Assembly: GCA_035651055.1 (NCBI GenBank)
Contig: DASRGK010000107.1
Coordinates: 2,524-66,523, forward strand
Source: Bauldia sp.
Lineage (GTDB): Bacteria > Pseudomonadota > Alphaproteobacteria > Rhizobiales > Kaistiaceae
Direction of reading: 5' to 3'
Length of the DNA stretch: 64,000 bases
Below are positions 27,417 through 64,000 of this stretch, piece after piece. Position numbers and translations under genes: made by a program. Position 1 is the stretch's first letter. Each line of letters opens with the position of its first letter. The notes beneath the pieces were generated by a model. That model was not told the origin of the DNA. It worked only from the letters and a program-made list of their open reading frames with translations, and did no database searches.

Positions 27417-27698
27417 TATTACCAATAGGCCACGAAATACGGCCGTACACAAGGCCTTCGGCGAAATGTCGCGTCCTTTCATCGGATGATTGTGGATGCT
27501 CCCTCGGGACCGGTCTGTCTGGCCTCGCCCGGACGGTAACGGCCCGCGCCTGGCCGGCTCCGGAGCGCGGGGCGCCCCAGGGCGGTGGAATGGGAGAACC
27601 GGGCCGCCGCCGATTCGCCCGGCTTCAGCCAGTTGTCAGGTCGGGTGTGCGAATCTGCCGGCGCGGTCGGGTTGACCGCGACGCCGGACCAAGCCCGC

Positions 27699-28427
27699 AT
27701 GAAGAAAGTTGCCCTGTCGCTGTTCGTGATTGCCGCCTCGGGCGCCTACGTCTGGAGCGAGGGTGGACGAGCCGCTCCCGACGATCCGCTTGCGGGCTCC
27801 GACGCCGCTCTACCCGCCGATCTGAAGCCGAGTGCCATCCCGGCCGCGACGCCGCCCGTCGCCGAACCGACGCCCCCCGAGGTTCTGCGAACGGGCGGCC
27901 CGCGCGCTCCGGATCGGCCTCTGCCCGAAAAGACGGCTGCCATTCTCGAAGCGGTGCGCGCCTCGGCTCCGCGGTTGGCCGCGACGATCACCCCTCCGGC
28001 GAGGGTTCCCCCGCCGGAGCCGACGCCAGTCGCGGCGGCGGAGCCGACGGTCCCGCTGCCGCGCCTGCGCCCCGCCTATCACGCGCCGCGGCTCGCGGCG
28101 GCAGTTATCCCGGCGTCAATGACGCTGGCCGCCAGCACCGCAGCCTATGCCGACGGCACCTATACCGGGCCGGTGGTCGACGCCTATTACGGCCTCGTCC
28201 AGATCCAGGCGATCGTCCAAGGCGGGCAGCTGGTCGGCATCAAGGTGCTGCAATATCCGTCCGACCGCCGCACCTCGGTGTTCATCAACCGGCAGGCCCT
28301 GCCGATGCTCCGCGACGAGGTGGTGAGCGCGCAGAGCGCCAATGTCGACATCGTCTCGGGCGCCACGCTCACCAGCGAGGCGTTCATCCGCTCGCTCTCG
28401 GGTGCGCTGCGGAAGGCGAAATCGTGA
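27699..28427 (+). CDS. Membrane-anchored FMN-binding-domain protein with ApbE flavinylation motif
   Basis: The ATG at 27699 gives MKKVALSLFVIAASGAYVW (anchor or signal). A long Pro/Ala-rich linker is followed by an FMN_bind-type domain ending in SANVDIVSGATLTSEAFIRSL. SGAT is encoded at 28356-28367. Confidence 0.75.
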   Translation: MKKVALSLFVIAASGAYVWSEGGRAAPDDPLAGSDAALPADLKPSAIPAATPPVAEPTPPEVLRTGGPRAPDRPLPEKTAAILEAVRASAPRLAATITPPARVPPPEPTPVAAAEPTVPLPRLRPAYHAPRLAAAVIPASMTLAASTAAYADGTYTGPVVDAYYGLVQIQAIVQGGQLVGIKVLQYPSDRRTSVFINRQALPMLRDEVVSAQSANVDIVSGATLTSEAFIRSLSGALRKAKS

Positions 28428-28430
28428 GCC

Positions 28431-29174
28431 ATGCGCGCCACCCGCATCCAGATGGGCATGCCGGTCACGGTGGAAGTGGTCGGTTCTGCCGACCCCGCCG
28501 TCTTTGACCGCGTGTTCGACTACTTCGACCGGATCGACCGGAAGTTCAGCACCTACCGGAGCGACAGCGAAATCTCTGCCATCAATGCCGGGGCGCTCGA
28601 CGAAGCCTCGATCACTGACGAGATGCGCGAAGTCCTTGCGCTCGCCGAGATCACCCGGGAGGAGACCGGCGGCTATTTCGACATCCGCACCCCCGAGGGG
28701 AAGCTCGACCCGTCCGGCATCGTCAAGGGCTGGGCGGTCCGCAATGCGGCGCTGCTCCTCGCCGATGCCGGGTTCGGCGACTTCTTCGTCGATGCCGGCG
28801 GCGACATCCAGTCCCGCGGGAAGAATGCCAGCCACACCGGCTGGACGATCGGCATCCGCAGCCCCTTCCGGGCCGAGGAAATCATCAAGGTCATCCGCCC
28901 GCAGGGCTCGGGGGTGGCGACCTCGGGCACCTATGTGCGCGGCCAGCACATCTACAATCCACACGCGCCGGCGCGCGCCATCGACGACATCGTCAGCCTG
29001 ACCGTTATCGCCGCCGACGTCTGCGAGGCCGACCGGTTCGCCACCGCCGCCTTCGCGATGGGGAGGGCCGGCATCGCCTTTCTCGAAAGCCGGCCGGGCG
29101 TCGAGGCCTATGCCGTCTGGCCCGACGGCCGCGCCACCATGACCAGCGGCTTCGAGGCTTTCGTCCCATGTTGA
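28431..29174 (+). CDS. apbE: ApbE-family FAD:protein FMN transferase (short form, no obvious signal peptide)
   Basis: 247 aa: MGMPVTVEV...FDRIDRKFSTYRSDSEISAIN...GGYFDI...LDPSGIVKGWA...VDAGGDI...VATSGTY. These are typical ApbE blocks. The start is 3 nt after the previous stop and in the same frame. Confidence 0.85.
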   Translation: MRATRIQMGMPVTVEVVGSADPAVFDRVFDYFDRIDRKFSTYRSDSEISAINAGALDEASITDEMREVLALAEITREETGGYFDIRTPEGKLDPSGIVKGWAVRNAALLLADAGFGDFFVDAGGDIQSRGKNASHTGWTIGIRSPFRAEEIIKVIRPQGSGVATSGTYVRGQHIYNPHAPARAIDDIVSLTVIAADVCEADRFATAAFAMGRAGIAFLESRPGVEAYAVWPDGRATMTSGFEAFVPC

Positions 29175-30676
29175 GACTGATCGACCGCCTGCTCGACCAC
29201 ATCACCATGTACCGCCTGGTGCTCGACTATCTGGTGGTCATCCTGGTAACGGCGCTGGTGCTGAGCCTCTTCGGGCTGGTTCCATTTCCTCCCGAGAATC
29301 TGGCGCTCTCGGCCGCCCTGATCTTCGCGACCTGCTGGCTTGCCAACCGGGTCTTCGCGGTCGTCTTCGCCATCCCGGCCAATATCGAATCGGCGACCAT
29401 CACCGCACTGATCCTTGCGCTCATCCTCGACCCGGTCGGCGTCGGCGACGTGAAGGGGATGGCCGGCCTCGCCTTCGCCTCGGTCTGGGCGATCGCGTCG
29501 AAATTCATCCTCGCCGTCCGCGGCAAGCACATCTTCAATCCGGCGGCGGCCGGCGCGTTTCTCGGCGGCCTGCTCCTCGATCAGCCGGCGACATGGTGGG
29601 TGGCCAATGCCGCCCTGCTCCCGGTCGTCCTCGCCGGCGGCATCCTGATCGTCCGCAAGACGCGGCAGAGCGAGCTGGTGGCCGCCTTCGCGCTGGTCAA
29701 TCTCGCCGCCGTGGTCGCGACTTCCTGGGGACCGCAGCTCGCGACGGCGCTCCGCGAGACCCTCCTCACCTCGCCGTTCTTCTTCTTCGCCTTCGCCATG
29801 CTGACCGAACCGCTCACCGCGCCGACCGGCCGCTGGCCGCGGCTCCTCTTCGCGGCGCTGGTCGGCTTCCTCGCTGCACCCGAGGTCCATGCCGGCAGCC
29901 TCTACTTCACGCCCGAACTGGCCCTCCTCATCGGCAACCTCTTCGCCTTCGCCATCGCCCCGCAGCGGCGGTTCATCCTCACGCTCGAGCGGATCGAGCA
30001 GACCGCGGCTGACACGTTCGACTTCGTCTTCCGCTCGCCGCACCGCGTCCGCTTCCAGCCGGGCCAGTATGTCGAGTTCACCCTGCCGGTGCCGAAGGCC
30101 GACAACCGCGGCAACCGGCGCTACTTCACCCTGGCTTCGTCGCCGGGCGAGCGGCGGCTGCGGCTCGGCGTCAAGTTCTATCCGGCGGCAAGCGCGTTCA
30201 AGCGCGCGCTGGCGGCAATGACGCCGGGCGACACGATCCACGCCGCCCAGGTCGCCGGCGACTTCACGCTGCCGCGCGACCGCGGCCGGAAGATCGCCTT
30301 CATTGCCGGCGGCATCGGGATCACGCCATTCCGCAGCATGATCCGGCACATGCTCGACAACCGGGAGGTCCGCCCGGTCACGATCCTCTATGCCGTCGAG
30401 CGGCAGCGCGACATCGCCTATCGCGACATCCTCGACGCCGCGGCGGACGAACTGGGGATCGCCACCTATTACGCCGTGGCCCGCGATCCCGGCCCCGACC
30501 AGTATCCGGGCTATGTCGACGCGCGGCTGCTGCAGGCGGCGCTGCCCGACTACCGCGAGCGCCTCTTCTACGTCTCGGGCCCGCAGCCGATGGTCCAGGC
30601 GATGCGCCGGCTCCTGCACCAGCTCGGCGTCCACCGCTCCCAGATCAAGGTCGACTTCTTCCCCGGCTTTGCCTAG
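29168..30676 (+). CDS. Fusion protein: RnfD/NqrB-like polytopic membrane domain + FNR-type FAD/NAD(P)H reductase domain
   Basis: The start overlaps the ApbE stop. The N-terminal ~265 aa carry HIFNPAAAG and FAFAMLTEPLTAP (compare NPFNPAM and FFILTDPVTAS in RnfD). The C-terminal part carries RRYFTLASSP (FAD RxYS/T motif) and AFIAGGIGITPFRSM (NAD-binding GGxGxxP). Confidence 0.75.
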   Translation: MLRLIDRLLDHITMYRLVLDYLVVILVTALVLSLFGLVPFPPENLALSAALIFATCWLANRVFAVVFAIPANIESATITALILALILDPVGVGDVKGMAGLAFASVWAIASKFILAVRGKHIFNPAAAGAFLGGLLLDQPATWWVANAALLPVVLAGGILIVRKTRQSELVAAFALVNLAAVVATSWGPQLATALRETLLTSPFFFFAFAMLTEPLTAPTGRWPRLLFAALVGFLAAPEVHAGSLYFTPELALLIGNLFAFAIAPQRRFILTLERIEQTAADTFDFVFRSPHRVRFQPGQYVEFTLPVPKADNRGNRRYFTLASSPGERRLRLGVKFYPAASAFKRALAAMTPGDTIHAAQVAGDFTLPRDRGRKIAFIAGGIGITPFRSMIRHMLDNREVRPVTILYAVERQRDIAYRDILDAAADELGIATYYAVARDPGPDQYPGYVDARLLQAALPDYRERLFYVSGPQPMVQAMRRLLHQLGVHRSQIKVDFFPGFA

Positions 30677-32037
30677 GCGGAAACCGCCGCGGCCGCGGGG
30701 CGCGGCAGGAAGACCGAGACCGACAGGCCGGGCCCGGCATCGGCAAGCGTAACCCTGCCGCCATAGGCATCGGCAATGTCGGCGACGATGGCGAGGCCGA
30801 GGCCGGTTCCCGACCCGGCCGTGTCGAGCCGCACGCCGCGGGCAAGCGCCGCCTGCCGCGCCTCCTCGGGAATCCCCGGCCCGTCGTCGCCGACCGCAAT
30901 CGTGGTTCCTTCGGTGGTGCTCTCGGCGCTTACCGTCAGCCGGGCGCGGGCAAAGCGGGCTGCGTTCTCCACGAGATTGCCGAGTATCTCGGCGAGGTCA
31001 TCCTCGTCGATGCTGGCCGTGACCGCAGGCGCCACATTGACCTCGATCGCCAGCCTCCGGCCGCCCGGCGTCCGCCGGACGACGTCGACCACCCGCGCGG
31101 CGACCTCGGCCACCGCGCATTCGCCGACGGCGACGCCCGGAGCGACGCGCGCCCGCGCCAGTTCGCGGTCGATGTGACGGCGAATGGCGCCGAGGCTCTT
31201 CTCGATCTCGCCCGCCAGGTCCGCCTCGCCCTTTGTCCGCAGGGCGCGGATCTCGCCCGAGATGACCTGGAGCGGGGTTTTCAGCCCGTGCGCCAGGTCG
31301 GTCGCCGCGGAGCGCGCGCGTTTCAGGGCCTTCTCCTGGGCTGCCAGCAGCCGGTTGATCTCGTCGACGAGCGGCCGCACCTCCTTCGGCGCATCGACCT
31401 CGAGGCGGGCGGCGCGCCGGCCGACGACCTCGCTGAGCGCGGCGCGGAGGCTCTCGAGCGGCGCGAGACCGATCGTCACCTGCGTAAAGATCGCCGCGAT
31501 CAGGACCAGTGCGAGGAGGATCAGCGCCGGCGCCAGTTCGGAGACATATTCATCGACCGAAACCTCGACGGCCCGGTGATCCTCGGCGACGATGGCGCGG
31601 AACGAGCGGCCGCCGGCGTCGGTGATCGTGCGCGCGGCGGCCACCAGCAGAGCCCCGCCGGGCCCGGTCAGCTCGGCCACCCGCACCCCGCCGCGCTCGC
31701 CGATCCGCCGCGTCGGCGCGAGCGTCGTATCCCAGAGCGAGCGCGACCGGATGACGGCCCCGCCTCCGTCGATTTCCTCGACCTGCCAGTAGAGACCGGA
31801 GAGTGGAACCGCGAAGCGCGGATCGGCGAGACCGGGCGTGACGGCGAGCCTGCCGTCGCTGTCGAAGGCCGTCGCGGCGACCAACTGGTTCAGTTCGACC
31901 GTCAGATCGGAGGCGATCCGCCGCTCGACATGGCGCTCGAAGAGGAAGCGCAGGCCGATGCCGGCGAGTCCAAGGGCGACGACGATCGAGATCGCGGCGG
32001 CCGACCAGAGCCTGAGGCGGATCGATCCGCCGCTCAT
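30673..32037 (-). CDS. Sensor histidine kinase (PhoQ/QseC-like architecture)
   Basis: The ATG at 32037 overlaps the response-regulator stop. The product MSGGSIRLRLWSAAAISIVVALGLAG has two TM segments, the H-box ATDLAHGLKTPL and the ATPase blocks NLVENAARFA and GTGLGLAIV. 454 aa. Confidence 0.85.
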   Translation of the reverse strand: MSGGSIRLRLWSAAAISIVVALGLAGIGLRFLFERHVERRIASDLTVELNQLVAATAFDSDGRLAVTPGLADPRFAVPLSGLYWQVEEIDGGGAVIRSRSLWDTTLAPTRRIGERGGVRVAELTGPGGALLVAAARTITDAGGRSFRAIVAEDHRAVEVSVDEYVSELAPALILLALVLIAAIFTQVTIGLAPLESLRAALSEVVGRRAARLEVDAPKEVRPLVDEINRLLAAQEKALKRARSAATDLAHGLKTPLQVISGEIRALRTKGEADLAGEIEKSLGAIRRHIDRELARARVAPGVAVGECAVAEVAARVVDVVRRTPGGRRLAIEVNVAPAVTASIDEDDLAEILGNLVENAARFARARLTVSAESTTEGTTIAVGDDGPGIPEEARQAALARGVRLDTAGSGTGLGLAIVADIADAYGGRVTLADAGPGLSVSVFLPRPAAAAVSA

Positions 32038-32699
32038 CCCTCGTCGCCCGGAACCAGATAGCCGAACCCGCGCCGCGTCTCGATCACCTTCGGACCGAGC
32101 TTCCGCCTGAGCCGCGCGACGATCACCTCGATCGTGTTGGGATCCTTGTCGTTGCCCGATTCGTAGAGATGCTCGGCAAGTTCGGTCGAGGGCACCACCC
32201 GGCCGCCGTGATGGATCAGAAACGACAGCAGCCGGTATTCGAGCGGCGACAGGGCGACCGGCAGGCCGTTGAGGGAGATCCGCATCTGCCGCGTATCGAG
32301 CGACAGCGGCCCCTGCCTCAGGACCGGCGCCGCCTGGCCGGCCGAACGGCGGAGCAGGGCGCGGAGCCGTGCGACCAGCTCCTCCATCTCGAACGGCTTC
32401 GGCAGGTAGTCGTCGGCGCCGGCATTGATGCCTTCGACCCGCTCGGTCCAGACACCCCGCGCCGTGAGGACCAGTACCGGGAAATTCCGGCCGGCGGAGC
32501 GCCAGCGCTTGAGCACGGTGAGCCCGTCGAGGCCGGGCAGGCCCAGATCGAGGACCACCGCGTCGTAGCTTTCCGTATCGCCCTTGAACCAGGCGTCCTC
32601 GCCGTGCCGCGATACATCCACGGCAAAGCCTGCGGCCCGCATCGCCGCAGCGATATCGGCCGCGATGCGGGGCTCGTCCTCGACGATCAGGACCTTCAC
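32034..32699 (-). CDS. OmpR-family response regulator
   Basis: MKVLIVEDEPRIAADI...DAVVLDLGLPGLDG... with a winged-helix C-terminus (RLRRKLGPKVIETRRGFGYLV). Confidence 0.9.
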   Translation of the reverse strand: MKVLIVEDEPRIAADIAAAMRAAGFAVDVSRHGEDAWFKGDTESYDAVVLDLGLPGLDGLTVLKRWRSAGRNFPVLVLTARGVWTERVEGINAGADDYLPKPFEMEELVARLRALLRRSAGQAAPVLRQGPLSLDTRQMRISLNGLPVALSPLEYRLLSFLIHHGGRVVPSTELAEHLYESGNDKDPNTIEVIVARLRRKLGPKVIETRRGFGYLVPGDEG

Positions 32700-33082
32700 G
32701 GCTCTCCCCGATTCTGTCCGCCGTCGTCGTCGCCTTCCCCGCCGGTGGCGGCGCCCGGCGGTCCGGCATCGAGGTCGACGGTCGCCCGCCGGCCGTCAGG
32801 TCCGACCACCTGGAACCGGTAAACCCAACGCCCGCCGACGCGAACCAGGTCCACCGCAACGACGTCGCCGGGCATGCGCCGCCCGAGCGCCGCCAGAATC
32901 TCGGAGAGCGGCAGAATTTCGCCGCGTTCGTAGAGATCGCGGGCGAGATCGTGATCGCTGTCGTCCTCAGCCGCAGCAGCAACCGGCAACGCGATGATTG
33001 TCGCCGCCAGCCAGCCCTTTATCCATCGCGTGCGCACGCGCCGGAATATAGCAGCGGTGCCTTGCATTTTGCTGGCAATCAT
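32696..33082 (-). CDS. PepSY-domain periplasmic protein
   Basis: 128 aa. A signal-like N-terminus is followed by ARDLYERGEILPLSEILAAL...VVAVDLVRVGGRWVYRFQVVGPDGR, typical of PepSY modules found upstream of two-component pairs. Confidence 0.65.
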   Translation of the reverse strand: MIASKMQGTAAIFRRVRTRWIKGWLAATIIALPVAAAAEDDSDHDLARDLYERGEILPLSEILAALGRRMPGDVVAVDLVRVGGRWVYRFQVVGPDGRRATVDLDAGPPGAATGGEGDDDGGQNRGEP

Positions 33083-33172
33083 ATCGCCGGTCGCACCGCG
33101 ACTGCCCTTGGCAGGCGTGCAATGGGTGGTATCCTGCCGGCGGGTTGTCTATCGCGAACCCCGTGGTGGGCG

Positions 33173-34060
33173 ATGACGCCGTGGTCGACGGGCCTGTCAA
33201 GACGGCGCGTTCTGCTGGCAGCCGCCGGCGCCGCGGCGGGCGGTCTTTTCCTGCGACAGACGGCCTGGGCGGTCGAGACGGAAGTTCCCCTCCGTTTCGG
33301 TATCCCGCAAATCCTGATCTCGCCGATGCTCGACGAGTTCGGTTGCATCGACCGCTATTTGCGCCTGCCATGGCGACGACCGGTAAGCCTCACCCAGCAC
33401 AAGACGAATGCGGAGCTTGCCGCAGACCTGCTCTCCGGCGAACTCGACCTGGCGTGGCTCAGCCCCTATGCGTATGTCCGCCGCCGTGAACAGCTTCAGG
33501 CGATAGCGGCTCCTCTCACGAAGGGGGCGGCAACCGCGCAATCCCTTCTCATCGTCGCCGCCGACCGGCCCGCTTCGATGCTCTCGGATCTCGCCGGAGA
33601 TACCCATGCCTTTGTCGACCCGGAGTCGGCGTCGGGCTTCCTCGTGACGGTCGCCGAACTTGCGAAAATCGGCACGCGGCCCGGCAGCTTCTTCAACCGG
33701 ACCTTCTTCACAAACGCCGATCGGAACGTGGTGAGAGCGGTCGCTGCCGGTCTCGCCGGGAGCGGGACGTGCGATGGCCATGTCTTTGAGGTTCTGAAGG
33801 AGATCGAGCCGCGGCTGACCGGAGCCGTGCGGGTTCTTTCGACGAGCTCGCCAATCGCGCCTCCGCCGATCGTGGCGAAGCGCGGGGGGCTTTCGGCGGC
33901 GGCGATGGCGGCCGCGAAATCCCTCTTCGTCGGAATGCGCACCACGGCTACCGGAGAGGCCGCTCTCGGAAAACTCCGACTGGACGGCTTCGCCGAAGCG
34001 GACGATGCGCTCTATGCGCCGATCACCGCAATGGCCGAGCGGCTTAAGGGTATCGTGTGA
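33173..34060 (+). CDS. PhnD/ABC-phosphonate-type periplasmic substrate-binding protein (no transporter partner), Tat-like signal
   Basis: MTPWSTGLSRRRVLLAAAGAAAGGLFLRQTAWA, then LRFGIPQIL...ELDLAWLSPYAYV...AFVDPESASGFL. An alternative start lies at 33122. The stop overlaps the kinase GTG. Confidence 0.65.
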   Translation: MTPWSTGLSRRRVLLAAAGAAAGGLFLRQTAWAVETEVPLRFGIPQILISPMLDEFGCIDRYLRLPWRRPVSLTQHKTNAELAADLLSGELDLAWLSPYAYVRRREQLQAIAAPLTKGAATAQSLLIVAADRPASMLSDLAGDTHAFVDPESASGFLVTVAELAKIGTRPGSFFNRTFFTNADRNVVRAVAAGLAGSGTCDGHVFEVLKEIEPRLTGAVRVLSTSSPIAPPPIVAKRGGLSAAAMAAAKSLFVGMRTTATGEAALGKLRLDGFAEADDALYAPITAMAERLKGIV

Positions 34061-35475
34061 TCCGCTCGCTCTCCACCCCGTGGACCCTGGCGGTCAAGGT
34101 CCCCGCGGCCATGGCAGCGGCTGTTGTGGTGATCGCGGCCGCAACCACCGCCCTTGTCTATCAGTTCGTCAGCACGGCCCAGGATCGCCAGCTGGCGAGC
34201 GTCACCCGCTCCTACCTCGACGGGCTGGCTCCGGCGCTCGTCGAGCCGGTCCTGCGGGGGGACATCTGGGGGGTGTTCGAGATCCTGGACCAACCTCGCT
34301 CCTTCTCGACGACCGCGATTCCGGTGGAGCTTGCCGTTGCCGATACGAGCGGCGAGGTGATAGCCGCCTCGGATCCACGCAAGGCGCCGAGCGGCGCTCC
34401 ATTGCCGGCTCGTTTTCGCAACGGAGCCGGCGGCGGAAGCCTTGTCAGGGACGATTCCGGAGAGGTGCTGTCGACCACCCTGATCGTGATCGGCGGCCGC
34501 AGCGTTGGCAGCCTGCATGTTCTCTGGGACATCACGCCGATGACGCAGGAGCGCCGGATGCTGATCCAAACCGCCGCCTTGTGGACGATCCTCGTTCCCG
34601 CGCTGGTCGGCCTCGCCGGCTGGTTCGCGACGCGGCGGATGATGCGGCCCGTGCAAATATTGTCGCGCCACATGGAGACGGCCGACGACGGTTCTGTCCA
34701 GCCGATCGGCGGCGCGGTGGTCAGGGCCGCGAGCCGCGAATTCGCCCGTCTCTACCGAAGCTTCAACACCATGGCCGGGGCGCTCGAGGCGCGTCGCGCG
34801 CTCACGGCGCGGCTTGTCGCCGAGGAGCGCCTGTCAAGCCTTGGCCGAATTGCGGCGGGTGTTGCCCACGAGATCAACAATCCTCTCGGCGGGCTTTTCG
34901 CAACCCTGCACATGCTGAAGACGGATCCCGCTTCACCGACGGTGCAACAGAAGGCAGTTGCGCTCCTCGAACGTGGGCTAGGGGGGATCCGGGACGTGGT
35001 GCGGGCGCTCCTCGCCATTCACCGGCCGGAACGCAACATGCGCCCGATCGCTGCCGCCGATTTCGACGACCTTCGTATCCTGATCGGTCCGCAGATCGGC
35101 AGTATTCGGCTGACATGGTCGATCGGTCCGCTCAACGGAGTCGATATCGCGGGCGGACCCGTCCGCCAGATGGTGCTCAATCTCCTTCTCAACGCACTCG
35201 CCGCGGCTGGCGAGAACGGCGATGTCGGCCTCACGGTCGCCGCCGCCCCGGACAAGGTGGTGATCACGGTGACCAATTCGGGGTCGGCCATGTCCGGTGA
35301 AATCGCGGCGTTTCTGGAAGGCAGAGGCACGGCGGACGTGCCGGGCGACGGTCTCGGCGTCTGGCTTGTCCGCCAGATCGCGGCCGAGCTCCGTGCCCGC
35401 GTCACGATACGAACCGGTACGGAGGGTACTTCGATCACCGTGATTATTCCGCGTCCGATCTCGGGTGCGACCTGA
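34057..35475 (+). CDS. Sensor histidine kinase
   Basis: 472 aa. Two TM segments flank a ~150-aa periplasmic region. H-box SLGRIAAGVAHEINNPLGG; ATPase blocks LLLNALAAA and GDGLGVWLV. Confidence 0.8.
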   Translation: MIRSLSTPWTLAVKVPAAMAAAVVVIAAATTALVYQFVSTAQDRQLASVTRSYLDGLAPALVEPVLRGDIWGVFEILDQPRSFSTTAIPVELAVADTSGEVIAASDPRKAPSGAPLPARFRNGAGGGSLVRDDSGEVLSTTLIVIGGRSVGSLHVLWDITPMTQERRMLIQTAALWTILVPALVGLAGWFATRRMMRPVQILSRHMETADDGSVQPIGGAVVRAASREFARLYRSFNTMAGALEARRALTARLVAEERLSSLGRIAAGVAHEINNPLGGLFATLHMLKTDPASPTVQQKAVALLERGLGGIRDVVRALLAIHRPERNMRPIAAADFDDLRILIGPQIGSIRLTWSIGPLNGVDIAGGPVRQMVLNLLLNALAAAGENGDVGLTVAAAPDKVVITVTNSGSAMSGEIAAFLEGRGTADVPGDGLGVWLVRQIAAELRARVTIRTGTEGTSITVIIPRPISGAT

Positions 35476-35476
35476 G

Positions 35477-36796
35477 ATGCTCGACGGCCGGCGCATCGGC
35501 ATTGTCGAGGATGATGCGGTCATGGGCGACGCGCTCGCGGAATGCTTCCGGCAGCGCGGCGCCGAGGTCGGTTTGTGGCGGAAGGGCAGCGACGCGCTCA
35601 CGGGTATCCGGAAATTCGCACCGGAGCTTGTCGTCTGCGACATCCGCCTGCCCGACCTTTCCGGCGAGCAGATATTCGCGGCCCTCAACGCCGACCTTCC
35701 TGCCGTGCCCTTCCTGTTCATAACCGGCCATGGCCGGATCGACGAGGCTGTCCGGCTTATCCGACTGGGCGCCGGCGACTACATCACCAAACCGTTCGAA
35801 ATTCCGCCCTTCCTCGAACGGGTGCGCGAACTCCTGCCGACAGGCGCTCCGGCGCGGCGCGACGTGCTCGGGCGCTCACCCGCGATCCGCGCCGTCGAAG
35901 CCACGCTCACGCGGGTTGCAGCGATCCGTTCGACCGTGCTGCTCCTCGGCGAGACAGGATCGGGCAAGGAGGTTGCAGCCCGCTTCCTCCACGATACCGG
36001 CCGGCCCGGCACGCCCTTCGTCGCCGTCAATTGCGCTGCCTTTCCTCCCGATCTGCTGGAATCGGAACTGTTCGGTCACGAACGCGGCGCCTTTACCGGC
36101 GCCGCGGGCAGGCACATCGGGCATGCTGAACGCGCCGGCGACGGAACCCTATTCCTCGACGAGATCGCCGAACTGCGCCCCGCCCTCCAGGCGAAGCTCC
36201 TCCGCCTTCTCGACGAGCGCCGTTTCACCCGCATCGGCGGGGACCGACCGCTCCAATTCAGCGCCCGCGTGGTCGCTGCGACCAATGCCGACCTCGCCCG
36301 CCGCGTCGAGAAAGGCGATTTTCGTCAGGACCTGCTTTTCCGGCTCGACGTGGTCTCCATACGGATCCCGCCGCTCCGCGACCGCACGGAGGACATTCTC
36401 CCGCTGATGGAACGGTTCATGAGCCAATATTGCCGGGAGTTCGGGACGTCGATCCGGCGCTTCGAGCCGGCAGCCGTGACCGCCGCGCTCCGCCACACCT
36501 GGCCCGGCAACGTTCGGGAACTCCGCAATCGCGTCGAACGAGCCGTCGCCTTGTCCGAAAGCCCGGTGCTCGCCGTCGCCGATCTCTTTCCGAGCGAGGG
36601 CGCCGAAGACGCCGCGGAATCGGTCACTCGAAACCTCTCGGCCGTGCGCGCGGCCGCCGAACGGGAAGAGATTTCCGGAGCGCTTGCCGCCAGCGGCGGC
36701 CGCATCCTCGCGGCCGCGAAGCAGTTGGGAATTTCACGGACGACGCTCTGGAAGAAGATGCGCCGGTTGAACCTCCGCGGGTCGGCCCTGCCCTGA
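35477..36796 (+). CDS. Sigma54-dependent enhancer-binding response regulator (NtrC family)
   Basis: Receiver domain (MLDGRRIGIVEDD...VVCDIRLPDLSG). AAA+ domain with GETGSGKE, ESELFGHERGAFTGA (GAFTGA at 36086-36103) and GTLFLDEI. C-terminal Fis-type HTH AAKQLGISRTTLWKKMRRL. An alternative GTG start lies at 35465. Confidence 0.9.
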   Translation: MLDGRRIGIVEDDAVMGDALAECFRQRGAEVGLWRKGSDALTGIRKFAPELVVCDIRLPDLSGEQIFAALNADLPAVPFLFITGHGRIDEAVRLIRLGAGDYITKPFEIPPFLERVRELLPTGAPARRDVLGRSPAIRAVEATLTRVAAIRSTVLLLGETGSGKEVAARFLHDTGRPGTPFVAVNCAAFPPDLLESELFGHERGAFTGAAGRHIGHAERAGDGTLFLDEIAELRPALQAKLLRLLDERRFTRIGGDRPLQFSARVVAATNADLARRVEKGDFRQDLLFRLDVVSIRIPPLRDRTEDILPLMERFMSQYCREFGTSIRRFEPAAVTAALRHTWPGNVRELRNRVERAVALSESPVLAVADLFPSEGAEDAAESVTRNLSAVRAAAEREEISGALAASGGRILAAAKQLGISRTTLWKKMRRLNLRGSALP

Positions 36797-36913
36797 AGGC
36801 GTCGATGCCCTGAGGAATGGCCGACCCGCGGAGCTGACCTGACCGCGATGTTGCGGAAGGGTGCGCGCACGTCTGGCGTACGCCGCAACGAGACACTCGC
36901 CAACCGCTTTCTC

Positions 36914-36941
36914 GATGCCGGCTGCCAAGTCTGCCGGCATC
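36914..36941. terminator. Hairpin between convergent genes
   Basis: GATGCCGGC-N10-GCCGGCATC, a 9-bp perfect stem that overlaps the stop codon of the Sel1-repeat gene. Confidence 0.4.
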
Positions 36942-37440
36942 AATGCGCGGCGAGCCACTCCTCGCTCTTCTGCTTCGCGTCGGCCAGTTCGGCAGGCGTC
37001 AGCTTCTTCGCCACGAGGTCGCGAAAGGCGGCGGCATTGCTTTTCGCCTCGGTGTCACCGGCCTGGTCATAGCCGGTCACCGCGACCACGCACCAAGTGT
37101 AGGCTCTGGCCGAATCGACCGGAGTGCCAACCCCGCCAACGGCGTAGTTCTGACAGAGCGAGTAGCGGGCGTCGACGATGCCGTGTGCGGCCGCCTTCTC
37201 GAACCAGACGTTACCCTTCTGAACGTCTTCCGGGCGGCCTTGGGCATTTGCATACATCAACCCGACCATGTACTCGGCCTTTGCGTTGCCTTGTTCGGCG
37301 AGGGGCGCGAGGAGCCTCATGGCGGTCTCGAAGTCTGCCCTCCTCCACGCGTCCATTCCGTTTTCCAGCGCGTCATCGGCCTGCGACGCCGTCGTGACGG
37401 CGACAAGCACGGCAAGCGCGAACCAAGAACGCCCGATCAT
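36940..37440 (-). CDS. Small secreted Sel1-like (TPR-family) repeat protein
   Basis: The ATG at 37440 follows GGGAGGA. The signal peptide is MIGRSWFALAVLVAVTTASQA. The repeats AEQGNAKAEYMVGLMY...FEKAAAHGIVDARYSLCQNY fit the Sel1 pattern. 166 aa. Confidence 0.7.
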   Translation of the reverse strand: MIGRSWFALAVLVAVTTASQADDALENGMDAWRRADFETAMRLLAPLAEQGNAKAEYMVGLMYANAQGRPEDVQKGNVWFEKAAAHGIVDARYSLCQNYAVGGVGTPVDSARAYTWCVVAVTGYDQAGDTEAKSNAAAFRDLVAKKLTPAELADAKQKSEEWLAAH

Positions 37441-37480
37441 TGAATTCCTCCCGGAGCTGGTGAGCACGACCGACGGGAGG

Positions 37481-37495
37481 GCAACGACCATGCCA
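37481..37495 (-). promoter_or_regulatory. Sigma54 (-24/-12) promoter
   Basis: The minus strand reads CTGGCATGGTCGTTGCC, against the consensus YTGGCACGrNNNTTGCW. GG and GC are correctly spaced. The -12 GC lies 40 nt upstream of the ATG at 37440. Confidence 0.6.
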
Positions 37496-38082
37496 GAGGA
37501 GCGAAACCTCAGTTCTCCGGCAATCGTCAGGGGTTCTGGCCGCCCTGGACCTCGCCAGTGTTTCCGTTCGGCAACGTCGGAGGATCGCACGGTTCACAAA
37601 GCCTGACATCCCGGAAGGCCTGACGGGATCGGTCAGCCCGCTGCTCTCCCCTGATCGCAGCGTCGAGCGCGGCGGGTCTCAGGCCAGTCCGACCTGATGC
37701 AGGACGAACCAGCCCGCCGCCGCCGTCGCCTCGATCAGCCGTCCGTGATTCTGGGAGAGGTCCCAGATGCAAATCACGACGATACCGAAGACGGTGAGCA
37801 TCAGCCGCATTGCCTGATGAAAAGCCCCCACCGATTGCCGTTTCGCTGAAAGGCACGAACGGATTGGAACGTCGGCGGTCGGCCTTCCTTCACCAATCGC
37901 CGCCGGCCTGGGTTGGCGCCGGCCGGCCGGGCGCAGGAGAAACCGGCGGAAGTTCCCCCGTTTCCGCGGATGTCGCCGGGCGCATAGTCCCTGGCATTTC
38001 ATGCAAAGTTCGGTGGCCCGCGCAATGGCAGGCTCACCATAGGTATCGAGCGGAGGCCCGAGAGGCGACGCCGGCAAGCGGC

Positions 38083-61966: not shown

Positions 61967-62042
61967 TGGTGCCGCAAGAGGGACTCGAACCCCCGACCCC
62001 CGCATTACGAATGCGATGCTCTACCGACTGAGCTATTGCGGC
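61967..62042 (-). tRNA. tRNA-Thr (anticodon CGU)
   Basis: The reverse complement folds by hand as GCCGCAA-TA-GCTC-AGTCGGTA-GAGC-A-TCGCA-TTCGTAA-TGCGG-GGGTC-GGGGG-TTCGAGT-CCCTC-TTGCGGC-A-CCA. It is 76 nt with an encoded CCA and anticodon CGT. Confidence 0.9.
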
Positions 62043-62098
62043 GCCGGGGGCGGTTATGGTTCCTCGCCGCGCCGCGGTCAACTGAGGGACGCCAGATT

Positions 62099-63667
62099 TC
62101 AGAAGGGGCGCGCCGCCTGGCGGTCGCCTTCCTCGTCGGGGGGCCCGGGATCGTCGGGCGGCCGGGTCGGCATGGTCAGGCCGGCGGCGGAAGCGGAGAG
62201 CGGCGGGCGCTCGGTCGCCGGCAGTTCGTTCCGCAGTGGCGCCAGCGGCGGCGCCGGCAGGACTTCGGCGTGGACCCCCGGAAGCGGCATGGCCGCGGGC
62301 GGCGGTTCCGGTTCGCCGGACGCGCCGGGTGCCGCCGCCCCGCCTGCCGCGCGCTCAAGTTCGATCGGCCGCCCGGCGCGCTCCTCGCGCTCGGGCTGGA
62401 CCGTCCAGGTGAAGGCACCGACCCTGCCGCTCAGCGGCGAGACCGGCGCCCACCGGTCGAATGCCTGCCCGTCGGCCACCCAGCGCGGATCGCGCGGTGC
62501 GGTGAGCGCCCGCGTCAGCCACGAGCGCACGCGCCCCTGATCCCCGTGCTCCTCTTCCTCGATCTCGGCCATCAGCAGGCAGATGCGCTCGCTCGGCTTC
62601 ACTTCGGCCGGGACCCGGAGCGCCGCCCGCGCCGCGCCAAAGTCGCGCGCGTCGATCGCCACCCGTGCCAGCGCGATCGCGCCTTCGACGCTGTCCGGCC
62701 TGAGGTCGAGGAGCCGGCGCATGCGCTTGAGCTTCTCCTTGGCGGTATCGCCCGTGCGCACGGCGGCGTAGGCCTCCGCCACCTCGGGATGCGGGGCGAT
62801 CTTCCATGTCGTTTCAAGGACGCGCGCCGCCCGCCGCGGTTCCCCGCGCCGCGCCAGGAGGCGCGCGGCGACGGTGGCCGCCGGCGCCAGGCCGGGGCTC
62901 AGCCGGTGCGCTTCGGTCGCCGCCGCTTCCGCCTCGGCGGGATCGCCGGCTTCGAGATCGTTCGCCCGCGCGGTGAGGAGCACGGCGCGGAGGCGCCTGG
63001 CTTCGTTCCTGTCGACCAGCCTGGCAGCGGCGTTCGCCGTCAGGGTGGCGAGCGCGCCCAGCCAGTAGCCGGAGCGAGCCTGGTACTCGAAGAGTGCGGT
63101 GCCGGCCCATCCGATCCGCGGCGCGGCGCGCATCGCCTCCTCGGCGAAATGCCGCGCCGCTTCGCTCTCGCCCTGCCTGGTCGCCTCGACGAAAAGACCG
63201 TGCAGGCCGAGGACGCGGGTATGGCGTCCCTCCGCCAGCGCCTCGAAGGCTATCCGCGCTTTTTCCCGGTCGCCGGCCAATTGTGCCGTCTGCGCGGCGA
63301 GGAGGAGCGTCAGCGGTTCGTCGCGAAGGAGCGCCGTCGCCTCGCCGGACGCGCGCTGCGCCAGACGGAGGTCGCCCGCCCCCACCGCTATCATTCCGGT
63401 CGAGAGCGCCCGGTAGCCGCGGTCGCGGCGCCGCGCGCCGAGATAGGCGCCGAATGTGCGCGGCGAGTTGAGCACGGCGCGGACGATCGCGCCGAGAAGC
63501 GCGAGAGCGCCGATGAGCGCAAGCAGCGCCACGGCAACGGTGAGGAGGCTCGCGCGGATCTCCTCGCCCTGCCAGGCGAGGGTGACCGTGCCGGGACGGT
63601 CGGCGAGCCACGCAGCCCCCGCCGCGATGAGGAAGATGACAATGAGGTAGAAGACGACGCGGACCAC
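62099..63667 (-). CDS. hemY: HemY-like inner-membrane protein (HemY_N + TPR) with Pro-rich C-terminal tail
   Basis: The GTG at 63667 gives VVRVVFYLIVIFLIAAGAAWLADRPGTVTLAWQGEEIRASLL (typical HemY N-terminus). TPR-like helices follow, and the last ~150 aa are Pro/Ala-rich. The track ORF start at 63769 overlaps the upstream gene. Confidence 0.8.
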   Translation of the reverse strand: MVRVVFYLIVIFLIAAGAAWLADRPGTVTLAWQGEEIRASLLTVAVALLALIGALALLGAIVRAVLNSPRTFGAYLGARRRDRGYRALSTGMIAVGAGDLRLAQRASGEATALLRDEPLTLLLAAQTAQLAGDREKARIAFEALAEGRHTRVLGLHGLFVEATRQGESEAARHFAEEAMRAAPRIGWAGTALFEYQARSGYWLGALATLTANAAARLVDRNEARRLRAVLLTARANDLEAGDPAEAEAAATEAHRLSPGLAPAATVAARLLARRGEPRRAARVLETTWKIAPHPEVAEAYAAVRTGDTAKEKLKRMRRLLDLRPDSVEGAIALARVAIDARDFGAARAALRVPAEVKPSERICLLMAEIEEEEHGDQGRVRSWLTRALTAPRDPRWVADGQAFDRWAPVSPLSGRVGAFTWTVQPEREERAGRPIELERAAGGAAAPGASGEPEPPPAAMPLPGVHAEVLPAPPLAPLRNELPATERPPLSASAAGLTMPTRPPDDPGPPDEEGDRQAARPF

Positions 63668-63678
63668 GCCCGGCACCC

Positions 63679-64000
63679 TCAGCCGCCGCCCGCCGGAGAG
63701 GCGACCGAAGCGGAAAGTTTCGCGATCACGCGGTCGATGGCGAGGCGCGTCTCCGCGGCATTCGCCCACGCGGCGGAGGCGGCCTTGCCGGCGTCGGGCA
63801 GCGCATCGCGCTCGCCGAGCGCGCCGGCAAGGTCGCCGCGTTCGACCTCGGCGACCATGCGCGAGACGATTGCTTCCGGCGTCGTGCCCTCGACCGGGGC
63901 GGTCGGCTTGACGCTGACCAGGCCGCGCGCAAATCCGGCGAGGCGGTCGAGGAGGCCCGAGCCGGCACCGGCCGGCCGGGTCGCCCGGAGGATGGCATCG
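63679..64000 (-). CDS. C-terminal part of a mitofilin/Mic60-like (COG4223, HemX-neighbour) membrane protein; N-terminus beyond the right edge
   Basis: The reverse frame reads ...LLDRLAGFARGLVSVKPTAPVEGTTPEAIVSRMVAEVERGDLAGALGERDALPDAGKAASAAWANAAETRLAIDRVIAKL and stops at 63679-63681. The position immediately upstream of hemY matches the alphaproteobacterial Mic60-hemY synteny I recall. Confidence 0.5.
   Translation of the reverse strand, partial: DAILRATRPAGAGSGLLDRLAGFARGLVSVKPTAPVEGTTPEAIVSRMVAEVERGDLAGALGERDALPDAGKAASAAWANAAETRLAIDRVIAKLSASVASPAGGG

What the first reader, a model, noticed from the sequence alone, without database searches (positions are those of the whole stretch)
33173..37495. 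Orphan PhnD-like binding protein + histidine kinase + sigma54 activator, wired to a small secreted Sel1-repeat protein
A Tat-exported PhnD/phosphonate-type periplasmic binding protein has no ABC permease or ATPase partner. Its gene overlaps (GTGTGA) a two-TM histidine kinase gene, which is followed by an NtrC-family enhancer-binding regulator (GAFTGA at 36086-36103).

The only sigma54-type promoter I can find in the whole window lies 700 bp downstream of the activator gene on the opposite strand. It drives a 166-aa signal-peptide-bearing Sel1-repeat protein.

This looks like a three-component, binding-protein-dependent sensory pathway with a one-gene output of unknown function. Neither the ligand nor the role of the Sel1 protein is evident from the sequence.
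Basis: partly seen in the sequence, partly recalled or inferred. Interest (0 to 1): 0.62.

Follow-up and report, generated by a model that had tools for sequence, protein, structure and literature searches.

The report
Rewired arsenite-sensor relative driving a Sel1 gene
This is a rare offshoot of the bacterial three-protein arsenite sensor AioX/AioS/AioR that has lost the arsenic-binding pocket and, through an unchanged arsenite-oxidase-type promoter, now switches on a small secreted Sel1-repeat protein instead of arsenite oxidase.

Summary
The binding protein is not a generic orphan PhnD. It belongs to the AioX family of arsenic-sensing binding proteins (PDB AioX E 2e-51; model TM 0.94-0.96). 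The kinase and activator are full-length homologues of AioS and AioR from loci that carry aioBA.

Two things differ from AioXSR:
- The arsenite pocket is remodelled. YCYSNSHDY, strictly kept in over 100 homologues, reads NSASASDDH here. That includes Cys106->Ser, a change that abolishes As(III) binding in Agrobacterium AioX.
- No aio or ars gene lies in the 64 kb.

The Sel1 gene has the aioB promoter layout: two GTY-N10-RAC boxes at -112 and -80 from the -24 element. The sister locus has them at -111/-79, canonical aioB promoters at -113/-80 and -110.

A small Sel1 gene flanks this XSR variant in all three loci found, in three different arrangements. The clade is very rare: a few sequences among 15 billion proteins, none in 185,579 species genomes.

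The kinase also has a non-canonical G1 ATP-binding box. The ligand and the role of the Sel1 protein remain unknown.

Verdict: a real new variant of a known system, of moderate interest.

The parts
33173..34060 (+). X*: Tat-signal periplasmic binding protein of the AioX family with a remodelled pocket. In window-protein numbering the pocket residues are N79, S97, A122, S152, A153, S154, D183, D201, H203. An alternative ATG lies at 33122.
   Evidence: PDB AioX E 2e-51. AF2 model pLDDT 90.6, TM 0.94-0.96 to 6esk/6eu7. Pocket signature NSASASDDH against YCYSNSHDY.
34057..35475 (+). S*: two-TM HAMP histidine kinase, a full-length homologue of AioS. The H box is intact. The G1 box reads N-S-G-S-A instead of D-x-G-x-G.
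35477..36796 (+). R*: NtrC-type sigma54 activator (REC, AAA+ with GAFTGA at 36086-36103, HTH_8). It is 53-54% identical to AioR of aioBA-linked loci. An alternative GTG start lies at 35465.
36940..37440 (-). Secreted 166-aa Sel1-repeat protein, the local output gene.
37481..37495 (-). Sigma54 -24/-12 element TGGCATGGTCGTTGC.
   Evidence: The counterpart TGGCACAACGATTGC lies upstream of the Sel1 orthologue in L004.
37560..37575 (-). Proximal AioR-type activator box GTTGCCGAACGGAAAC, 80 bp upstream of the start of the -24 element.
   Evidence: It matches 15 of 16 positions of the published AioR motif (PMC5335332).
37592..37607 (-). Distal activator box GTCAGGCTTTGTGAAC, 112 bp upstream of the -24 element and 32 bp from the proximal box.
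   Evidence: This is the only tandem box pair in the 64-kb window.
33108..33135 (+). Sigma70-like promoter candidate for the X*S*R* operon (TTGGCA-16-TATCCT). Weak evidence.

Best explanation
The locus is a diverged paralogue of the AioX-AioS-AioR three-component arsenite-sensing system. It has been rewired at both ends.

Proposed mechanism:
- X* is exported by Tat and binds a periplasmic ligand that is most likely not arsenite.
- Liganded X* docks on the periplasmic domain of the two-TM kinase S*.
- S* sets the phosphorylation state of the receiver Asp55 of R*.
- Phosphorylated R* assembles on two GTY-N10-RAC boxes (37592-37607 and 37560-37575).
- R* uses its AAA+/GAFTGA domain to open the sigma54 promoter at 37481-37495.
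- That promoter transcribes a 166-aa Sel1-repeat protein, which is exported to the periplasm.

Shown here: homology of all three proteins to AioXSR; the altered pocket; conserved linkage to the Sel1 gene; and an aioB-type promoter layout in front of Sel1.

Inferred: ligand-dependent signalling, phosphotransfer, and RpoN/R* dependence in vivo.

The role of the Sel1 protein is open. My leading guess is a periplasmic protein-binding adaptor that either feeds back on X*/S*, as ExoR does on ExoS, or handles the sensed compound.
For: Family assignment:
- X* hits solved AioX at E 2e-51 and ArrX at 3e-26, but PhnD only at 1e-5.
- The AF2 model superposes on AioX with TM 0.94-0.96 and rmsd 1.2-1.5 A.
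- The nearest canonical homologues sit in aioX-aioS-aioR-aioB-aioA clusters.
- S* is 34-38% and R* 53-54% identical, end to end, to their AioS and AioR. Canonical AioR against canonical AioR is 57%.
- The HTH recognition helix RTTLWxKMRR is shared.

Pocket:
- Published contact residues are Y88, C106, Y131, S161, S163, H192, D210 (PMC5908839).
- The 9-position signature (the seven contact residues plus N162 and Y212) reads NSASASDDH here and NSTSASDDH in the sister P0002.
- It reads YCYSNSHDY in 104 homologues.

Phylogeny: an NJ tree built without the pocket columns pairs the window with P0002 in 199 of 200 replicates. It nests them inside the canonical AioX radiation in 176 of 200.

Output:
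- L004 has X-S-R, then a 49%-identical Sel1 orthologue (E 3e-47), with TGGCACAACGATTGC upstream.
- A third locus has Sel1 divergent from X-S-R.
- GTY-N10-RAC boxes lie at -112/-80 (window), -111/-79 (L004), -113/-80 (L006 aioB) and -110 plus a half-site at -78 (L005 aioB). They are the only full matches in each region.
- This is the only tandem pair in the 64 kb, against 0.2 expected.

Selection: 16 synonymous against 9 non-synonymous differences to a ~97%-identical mine-metagenome strain.

Context: no aio or ars genes in the window.
Against: - There are no expression or biochemical data, and no RNA run holds the locus.
- Only two loci have DNA. A third has gene order only, so the comparative sample is tiny.
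- The rest of the genome is unknown. aioBA, ars genes or further R* targets could lie elsewhere.
- The kinase's G1 box (N-S-G-S-A here, N-T-G-P-C in L004) departs from D-x-G-x-G, which is kept in 117 of 120 homologues. S* may therefore bind ATP poorly and act mainly as a phosphatase or scaffold, which would change the signalling logic.
- The pocket inference rests on alignment to one crystal structure. Two cysteines conserved in the clade (C58, C200) leave a small chance of a different thiol-based arsenite site.
- The -24/-12 match alone is within chance expectation.
Confidence: 0.75

Rival explanations
1. It is still a bona fide arsenite (or antimonite) sensor. X* binds As(III) in a different way, and the Sel1 protein is an arsenic-related periplasmic factor. 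aioBA or ars genes would lie elsewhere in the genome.
For: X*, S* and R* nest within the AioXSR radiation. The promoter layout equals that of aioB. Near-identical sequence occurs in mine metagenomes. Two cysteines are conserved in the clade (alignment). NCBIfam gives a weak similarity of the Sel1 protein to the periplasmic phenylmercury-resistance protein MerG, E 5e-5, far below cutoff.
Against: The thiol ligand Cys106 is Ser, and C108S alone abolishes As(III) binding in Agrobacterium AioX. Y88, Y131 and H192 are also replaced. All 100+ arsenic-linked homologues keep the pocket strictly. No aio or ars gene lies in the 64 kb. By the model's strand pattern, C200 should point away from the pocket; this is an inference.
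Confidence: 0.12
2. It is a decaying remnant. After aioBA was lost, the regulatory cassette is drifting, with pocket and G1 box degenerating, and has no sensory function. The Sel1 linkage is incidental.
For: There are simultaneous departures in the ligand pocket and in the kinase ATP-binding G1 box. The clade is extremely rare.
Against: All ORFs are intact in lineages only 53-70% identical. The variant pocket is itself conserved, 8 of 9 positions against 52% overall. The ratio of 16 synonymous to 9 non-synonymous changes indicates purifying selection. The Sel1 gene, the sigma54 promoter and both boxes are kept at the same spacing in two loci with otherwise unalignable intergenic DNA. Sel1 is linked in 3 of 3 loci.
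Confidence: 0.06
3. One reading: an orphan PhnD-type phosphonate/phosphite/organic-anion binding protein that has been recruited to a kinase, forming a new kind of sensory pathway.
For: The Pfam Phosphonate-bd domain is present. No ABC partner is adjacent. PhnD, PtxB and HtxB share the fold.
Against: NCBIfam PhnD scores 84.6 bits against a cutoff of 261. AioX is far closer than PhnD or PtxB: E 2e-51 against 1e-5 to 5e-9. The oxyanion-holding Tyr/Tyr/His shared by PhnD and AioX are lost. The X-S-R design is the known AioXSR design.
Confidence: 0.05

Closest known systems
AioX-AioS-AioR of Rhizobium sp. NT-26 and Agrobacterium tumefaciens 5A/GW4 (arsenite-sensing three-component system controlling aioBA)
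   Same: - Same gene order, with overlapping genes.
- Tat-type binding protein of the same subfamily and fold.
- Two-TM HAMP kinase.
- REC-AAA+-HTH_8 activator with the same recognition helix.
- Sigma54 promoter preceded by two GTY-N10-RAC boxes at about -112 and -80.

   Different: - Four of the seven ligand-contact residues are replaced, including the arsenite-binding Cys.
- The regulated gene is a small Sel1-repeat protein rather than aioBA.
- No arsenic genes lie nearby.
- The kinase G1 box is N-x-G-x-[AC].
ArxXSR and ArrXSR (Alkalilimnicola ehrlichii, Chrysiogenes arsenatis)
   Same: Binding proteins of the same subfamily. ArrX matches at E 3e-26 and TM about 0.9. The sensor-first three-component logic is the same.
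   Different: They keep the YCYS..HD pocket and control the arsenic respiratory enzymes. ArrR is not a sigma54 activator (PMC5908839).
ExoR-ExoS-ChvI switch of Rhizobiales
   Same: A small periplasmic protein made only of Sel1 repeats works together with a two-TM histidine kinase. ExoR binds the sensing domain of ExoS (PMC4550343). This is a model for what the Sel1 protein here might do.
   Different: This is an analogy only. ExoR has 268 residues and six repeats, and the regulator is OmpR-type rather than sigma54-dependent. No orthology was shown. The Sel1 protein here matches only generic SLR structures.
TorT-TorS-TorR and LuxP-LuxQ
   Same: A periplasmic binding protein without a transporter acts as the ligand-sensing partner of a membrane kinase.
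   Different: The binding-protein families are unrelated, the kinases are hybrid, and there is no sigma54 step. PMC5908839 states an independent origin.
PhnD / PtxB / HtxB ABC-transporter binding proteins
   Same: Same Pfam family and overall fold, TM about 0.75-0.88.
   Different: Those proteins serve ABC importers. X* scores far below the PhnD equivalog cutoff, and the phosph(on)ate-binding Tyr/Tyr/His are absent.

Membership tests
AioXSR three-component system | X is a periplasmic binding protein of the AioX/ArxX/ArrX subfamily, by sequence and by fold | tested here: met
   E 2e-51 to 6esv/6esk. Model TM 0.94-0.96 and rmsd 1.2-1.5 A to AioX. Nested in the AioX radiation in 176 of 200 NJ replicates.
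AioXSR three-component system | Conserved arsenic-oxyanion pocket Y88, C106, Y131, S161, S163, H192, D210 | tested here: not met
   The window has N, S, A, S, S, D, D. 104 homologues carry the full signature.
AioXSR three-component system | X-S-R operon without an ABC permease or ATPase, with overlapping genes | tested here: met
   The layout is the same in L004, L005 and L006.
AioXSR three-component system | Tat-type signal peptide on X | tested here: inconclusive
   SRRRVLL (window) and TRREFL (P0002) fit the twin-arginine motif. No dedicated predictor was run. AioX is reported to have a TAT signal.
AioXSR three-component system | S is a two-TM histidine kinase homologous to AioS with intact catalytic boxes | tested here: inconclusive
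   Full-length homology and H, N and G2 boxes are present. The G1 box D-x-G-x-G is N-S-G-S-A.
AioXSR three-component system | R is a REC-AAA+(GAFTGA)-HTH_8 sigma54 activator homologous to AioR | tested here: met
AioXSR three-component system | AioR box(es) plus a sigma54 promoter upstream of the target | tested here: met
   Proximal box matches 15 of 16 positions of the published motif. Two boxes lie at -112/-80, as in aioB promoters.
AioXSR three-component system | The target is arsenite oxidase aioBA | tested here: not met
   No Rieske or molybdopterin aio genes lie in the 64-kb window. The gene behind the promoter is Sel1. The rest of the genome was not available.
AioXSR three-component system | Response to arsenite | not testable with these tools
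   Needs binding or reporter assays.
PhnD phosphonate ABC-transporter binding protein | Scores above the TIGR03431 equivalog cutoff and sits with phnC/phnE | tested here: not met
   84.6 bits against a cutoff of 261.1. No transporter genes are adjacent.
ExoR-type periplasmic Sel1 regulator | Secreted protein made only of Sel1 repeats | tested here: met
   Signal peptide plus an all-helical SLR fold, pLDDT 93.7.
ExoR-type periplasmic Sel1 regulator | Orthology to ExoR and binding to the kinase's sensing domain | not tested
   No ExoR sequence comparison was run. The interaction needs an experiment.

The most novel reading that the evidence does not exclude
X* has evolved a new, non-arsenic ligand specificity within the AioX sensor family. 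The pocket now offers Asn, Ser, Asp, Asp and His, which would suit a cation or a neutral small molecule rather than an oxyanion. The Sel1 protein would be a dedicated periplasmic partner of the circuit, either an ExoR-like feedback binder of S*/X* or a handler of the sensed compound. With its atypical G1 box, S* may work mainly as a ligand-controlled phosphatase. Together these would make a new signalling circuit built from arsenite-sensor parts.
Probability: 0.35. Interest if true: 0.65.

Novelty: new variant of a known kind. Interest (0 to 1): 0.5.

Why it matters
The AioX/ArxX/ArrX proteins are described as a subfamily dedicated to arsenic oxyanions, with an invariant pocket, and are being considered as arsenic biosensor parts.

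This clade is a natural case in which the same cassette keeps its kinase, activator, DNA boxes and promoter geometry but changes both its input and its output. The input change is a pocket rebuilt at 6 of 9 signature positions. The output change is a Sel1 protein in place of arsenite oxidase.

That gives three practical points:
- a defined starting point for asking how ligand specificity is encoded in this scaffold;
- a warning for metagenome annotation, because 'aioX/aioS/aioR' hits are not proof of arsenite sensing;
- a small secreted Sel1 protein whose regulation is unusually clear and could guide work on its function.

Tried and rejected
**More clade members**
- Genome contigs and metagenome-contig scans with the X alignment A1 found nothing.
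- A genome scan with the Sel1 alignment A4 gave only partial matches of at most 37% identity.
- A metagenome scan with P0272, meant to recover the DNA of the third locus, found nothing.

**Fragments and candidates**
- Fragments P0093 and P0157 may belong to the clade, but they sit on contigs of 0.7-1 kb.
- P0134, which has a variant pocket, is not the X of the third locus.

**Sel1 relatives**
- Other small Sel1 proteins (P0242, P0249) lie in unrelated contexts, next to PilZ, MBOAT and T2SS genes. They are not orthologues.
- The Sel1 fold search gave only generic SLR proteins.

**Expression**
- No transcriptome run holds the locus.
- Run metadata for L004 could not be requested.

**Other checks**
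- Rfam found nothing in the leader regions.
- A first NJ tree was disturbed by saturated distances, so I repeated it with capped distances and without the pocket columns.
- The inverted repeat 37447-37480 (anti-SD/SD-like) starts upstream of the expected transcription start, so I rejected it as a translational switch.
- No flanking genes are shared between the window and L004 beyond X, S, R and Sel1.
Full report
**1. The observation**

- The binding-protein gene runs 33173-34060 (+). It has Pfam Phosphonate-bd at E 3e-43 and an N-terminal SRRRVLL twin-arginine motif.
- It overlaps the kinase gene, 34057-35475, through GTGTGA at 34055-34060.
- The kinase has HAMP, HisKA and HATPase_c domains. 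It has two hydrophobic segments flanking a periplasmic stretch of about 130 residues.
- The activator gene runs 35465 or 35477 to 36796. Gene callers use the ATG at 35477. It has Response_reg, Sigma54_activat and HTH_8 domains, and GAFTGA at 36086-36103.
- The 166-aa Sel1 protein gene is at 36940-37440 (-).
- TGGCATGGTCGTTGC lies at 37495-37481 (-), 41 nt before the ATG and behind a GGGAGGA ribosome site.
- No ABC permease or ATPase belongs to the binding protein.

The -24/-12 match on its own is not above chance. There are 2 matches against 1.75 expected at <=1 mismatch. In a weighted scan it is joint top with an intragenic site. The case for this promoter rests on the comparisons in section 4.

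**2. What the three regulatory genes are**

The binding protein is not a generic PhnD.
- Against solved structures it hits AioX of Rhizobium sp. NT-26 at E 2e-51 and ArrX at 3e-26. It hits PtxB, HtxB and PhnD only at 5e-9 to 1e-4.
- It scores 84.6 bits against the NCBIfam PhnD cutoff of 261.
- An AlphaFold model (pLDDT 90.6) superposes on apo, arsenite-bound and phosphate-bound AioX with target-normalised TM 0.94-0.96 and rmsd 1.2-1.5 A.

The nearest canonical homologues sit in textbook clusters: aioX-aioS-aioR followed by a Rieske gene and an 820-aa molybdopterin gene. These are P0004 from a Thalassobaculales MAG and P0018 from a Bosea MAG (L005 and L006).

The window's kinase and activator align end to end with the AioS and AioR of those loci, at 34-38% and 53-54% identity. 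The two canonical AioR proteins are only 57% identical to each other. The recognition helix of the HTH_8 domain, RTTLWxKMRR, is common to all four activators.

The cassette is therefore an AioXSR homologue. AioXSR is a known three-component design: periplasmic sensor protein, kinase, and sigma54 activator (PMC5908839, PMC7533571).

**3. What is different**

*First, the ligand pocket.*
- The crystal structures define the AioX pocket as Y88, C106, Y131, S161, S163, H192 and D210. Arsenite is bonded to the sulphur of Cys106 (PMC5908839).
- I read nine positions: the seven contact residues plus N162 and Y212. The signature is YCYSNSHDY in 104 of the retrieved homologues, with only conservative variation in the ArxX/ArrX-like groups.
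- The window protein reads NSASASDDH.
- The single close relative, P0002 (53% identity), reads NSTSASDDH. The new pocket is thus conserved at 8 of 9 positions against 52% identity overall.
[quoted passage not shown] 2012, as reviewed in PMC7533571).
- The two tyrosines and the histidine that hold the oxyanion in both PhnD and AioX are also gone.

A neighbour-joining tree built without the pocket columns pairs the window with P0002 in 199 of 200 replicates. It places the pair inside the canonical Cys-bearing AioX radiation in 176 of 200. The pocket was therefore most probably rebuilt from an arsenite-binding ancestor.

*Second, the target.* No aioB, aioA or ars gene occurs anywhere in the 64 kb. 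The window otherwise encodes sugar ABC systems, arabinofuranosidases, LacI/GntR regulators and housekeeping genes.

*Third, the kinase's G1 box.* It is D-x-G-x-G in 117 of 120 homologues, including the 51%-identical P0272. It reads N-S-G-S-A in the window and N-T-G-P-C in L004. From general knowledge of GHKL ATPases, this Asp contacts the adenine. S* may therefore bind ATP weakly, and I flag this as unexplained.

**4. The Sel1 gene as output**

The contig carrying P0002 (L004) has X-S-R with the same overlaps. About 840 bp downstream, on the same strand, it has a 174-aa Sel1 protein that is 49% identical to the window's (E 3e-47). Upstream of that gene lies TGGCACAACGATTGC. L004 has two matches at <=1 mismatch against 0.18 expected. 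The other match lies inside the kinase gene and lacks the GC of the -12 element.

A third locus was found through the kinase homologue P0272. Only its gene order is available: Sel1 (174 aa) divergent from X-S-R. A small Sel1 gene therefore accompanies this XSR variant in 3 of 3 loci, in three different arrangements. Nothing else is shared between the window and L004.

[quoted passage not shown] It matches at 15 of 16 positions at 37575-37560.

Scanning for the box shape GTY-N10-RAC gives exactly two sites in each upstream region, at these distances from the start of the -24 element:

| Locus | Gene behind the promoter | Box positions |
|---|---|---|
| Window | Sel1 | -112 and -80 |
| L004 | Sel1 | -111 and -79 |
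| L006 (Bosea MAG) | aioB | -113 and -80 |
| L005 (Thalassobaculales MAG) | aioB | -110, plus a half-site at -78 |

The background frequency of the box is about 0.001 per bp. The pair upstream of Sel1 is the only pair with 30-35 bp spacing in the whole window, against 0.2 expected. The intergenic DNA of the window and L004 is otherwise unalignable.

This shared geometry is the strongest evidence. It indicates that the Sel1 gene is driven by an aioB-type, R*-dependent sigma54 promoter.

**5. Is the module alive?**
- All ORFs are intact in lineages 53-70% identical.
- Fragments of a roughly 97%-identical strain in two mine metagenomes differ from the window at 16 synonymous and 9 non-synonymous sites across the four genes. 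That indicates purifying selection.

**6. Rarity**
- An exhaustive HMMER search of 1.84 billion cluster representatives finds nothing between the window's own cluster and canonical AioX at 41% identity. The exceptions are two short fragments that may belong to the clade.
- Scans of 185,579 species genomes and of JGI metagenome contigs found no member.
- The Sel1 protein likewise has no orthologue in genomes.

**7. The Sel1 protein**
- It has a signal peptide without a lipobox cysteine.
- Its all-helical model (pLDDT 93.7) has about three and a half Sel1 repeats.
- It matches only generic SLR structures: c5321, LceB, LpnE, HcpC and AlgK.
- Weak family similarities to MotX and MerG are far below their cutoffs.
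- Its function cannot be read from sequence.

By analogy with ExoR, it may bind X* or the sensing domain of S* and feed back on the pathway. ExoR is a periplasmic all-Sel1 protein that binds the sensing domain of ExoS (PMC4550343). Alternatively, the Sel1 protein may act on the sensed compound or on the envelope. Neither idea was tested.

**8. Verdict**

The locus is a rare, apparently functional variant of AioXSR. It has a rebuilt ligand pocket, an atypical kinase G1 box, and a Sel1 gene in place of aioBA behind an unchanged promoter layout. I rate it a new variant of a known kind, with moderate interest (0.5). The ligand, the kinase competence of S* and the role of the Sel1 protein are open and need experiments.

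Noticed in passing
window 35266-35289 (kinase residues 404-411): The G1 ATP-binding box of the kinase reads N-S-G-S-A here and N-T-G-P-C in L004. 117 of 120 homologues have D-x-G-x-G. The kinase may be weak or inactive, and possibly phosphatase-biased.
   Followed up: partly
window 27585-33082: Directly upstream, and divergent from X*, lies a second sensory cluster. It has a PepSY-like 128-aa protein, an OmpR-type regulator and a kinase on the minus strand. Next to them are FMN_bind, ApbE and a 502-aa NqrB/RnfD-like protein with an NAD-binding domain, which looks like a flavinylated membrane reductase set.
   Followed up: partly
window 37679-37801 (-): A gene caller predicted a small hydrophobic 40-aa ORF upstream of the Sel1 promoter region. 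It has no counterpart in L004.
   Followed up: partly
window 33173-37440: Third-position GC of X*, S*, R* and Sel1 is 0.76-0.80, against 0.86-0.91 for neighbouring genes. This is compatible with horizontal acquisition of the four-gene module.
   Followed up: no
window 37447-37480: A 16-nt imperfect inverted repeat pairs CCTCCC, just after the -12 element, with the GGGAGG ribosome site. Its left arm probably lies upstream of the transcription start, so it is likely not in the mRNA.
   Followed up: partly
window 61970-62042 (-) and 62001-64000: One tRNA gene. The last 2 kb have 74.5% GC and encode a HemY_N/TPR protein.
   Followed up: no
proteins P0134, P0168, P0093: Other PhnD/AioX-like proteins also carry Asp at the His192 position and lack Cys106 (signatures YADSLSDNF, YSCSTSDEL, ---STSDDY). 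Further non-arsenic specificities may exist in this sensor family.
   Followed up: no
L015 9118-14948: An aio cluster on a long-read metagenome contig shows split or fused genes: a 164-aa X fragment, a 675-aa R, and a 387-aa aioA fragment. These are probably assembly frameshifts rather than biology.
   Followed up: no
L006 4745-7691: Next to a canonical Bosea aioXSRBA cluster lie genes with CTD10, MC6 and DUF2326 domains. These domains are typical of conflict or defence systems.
   Followed up: no
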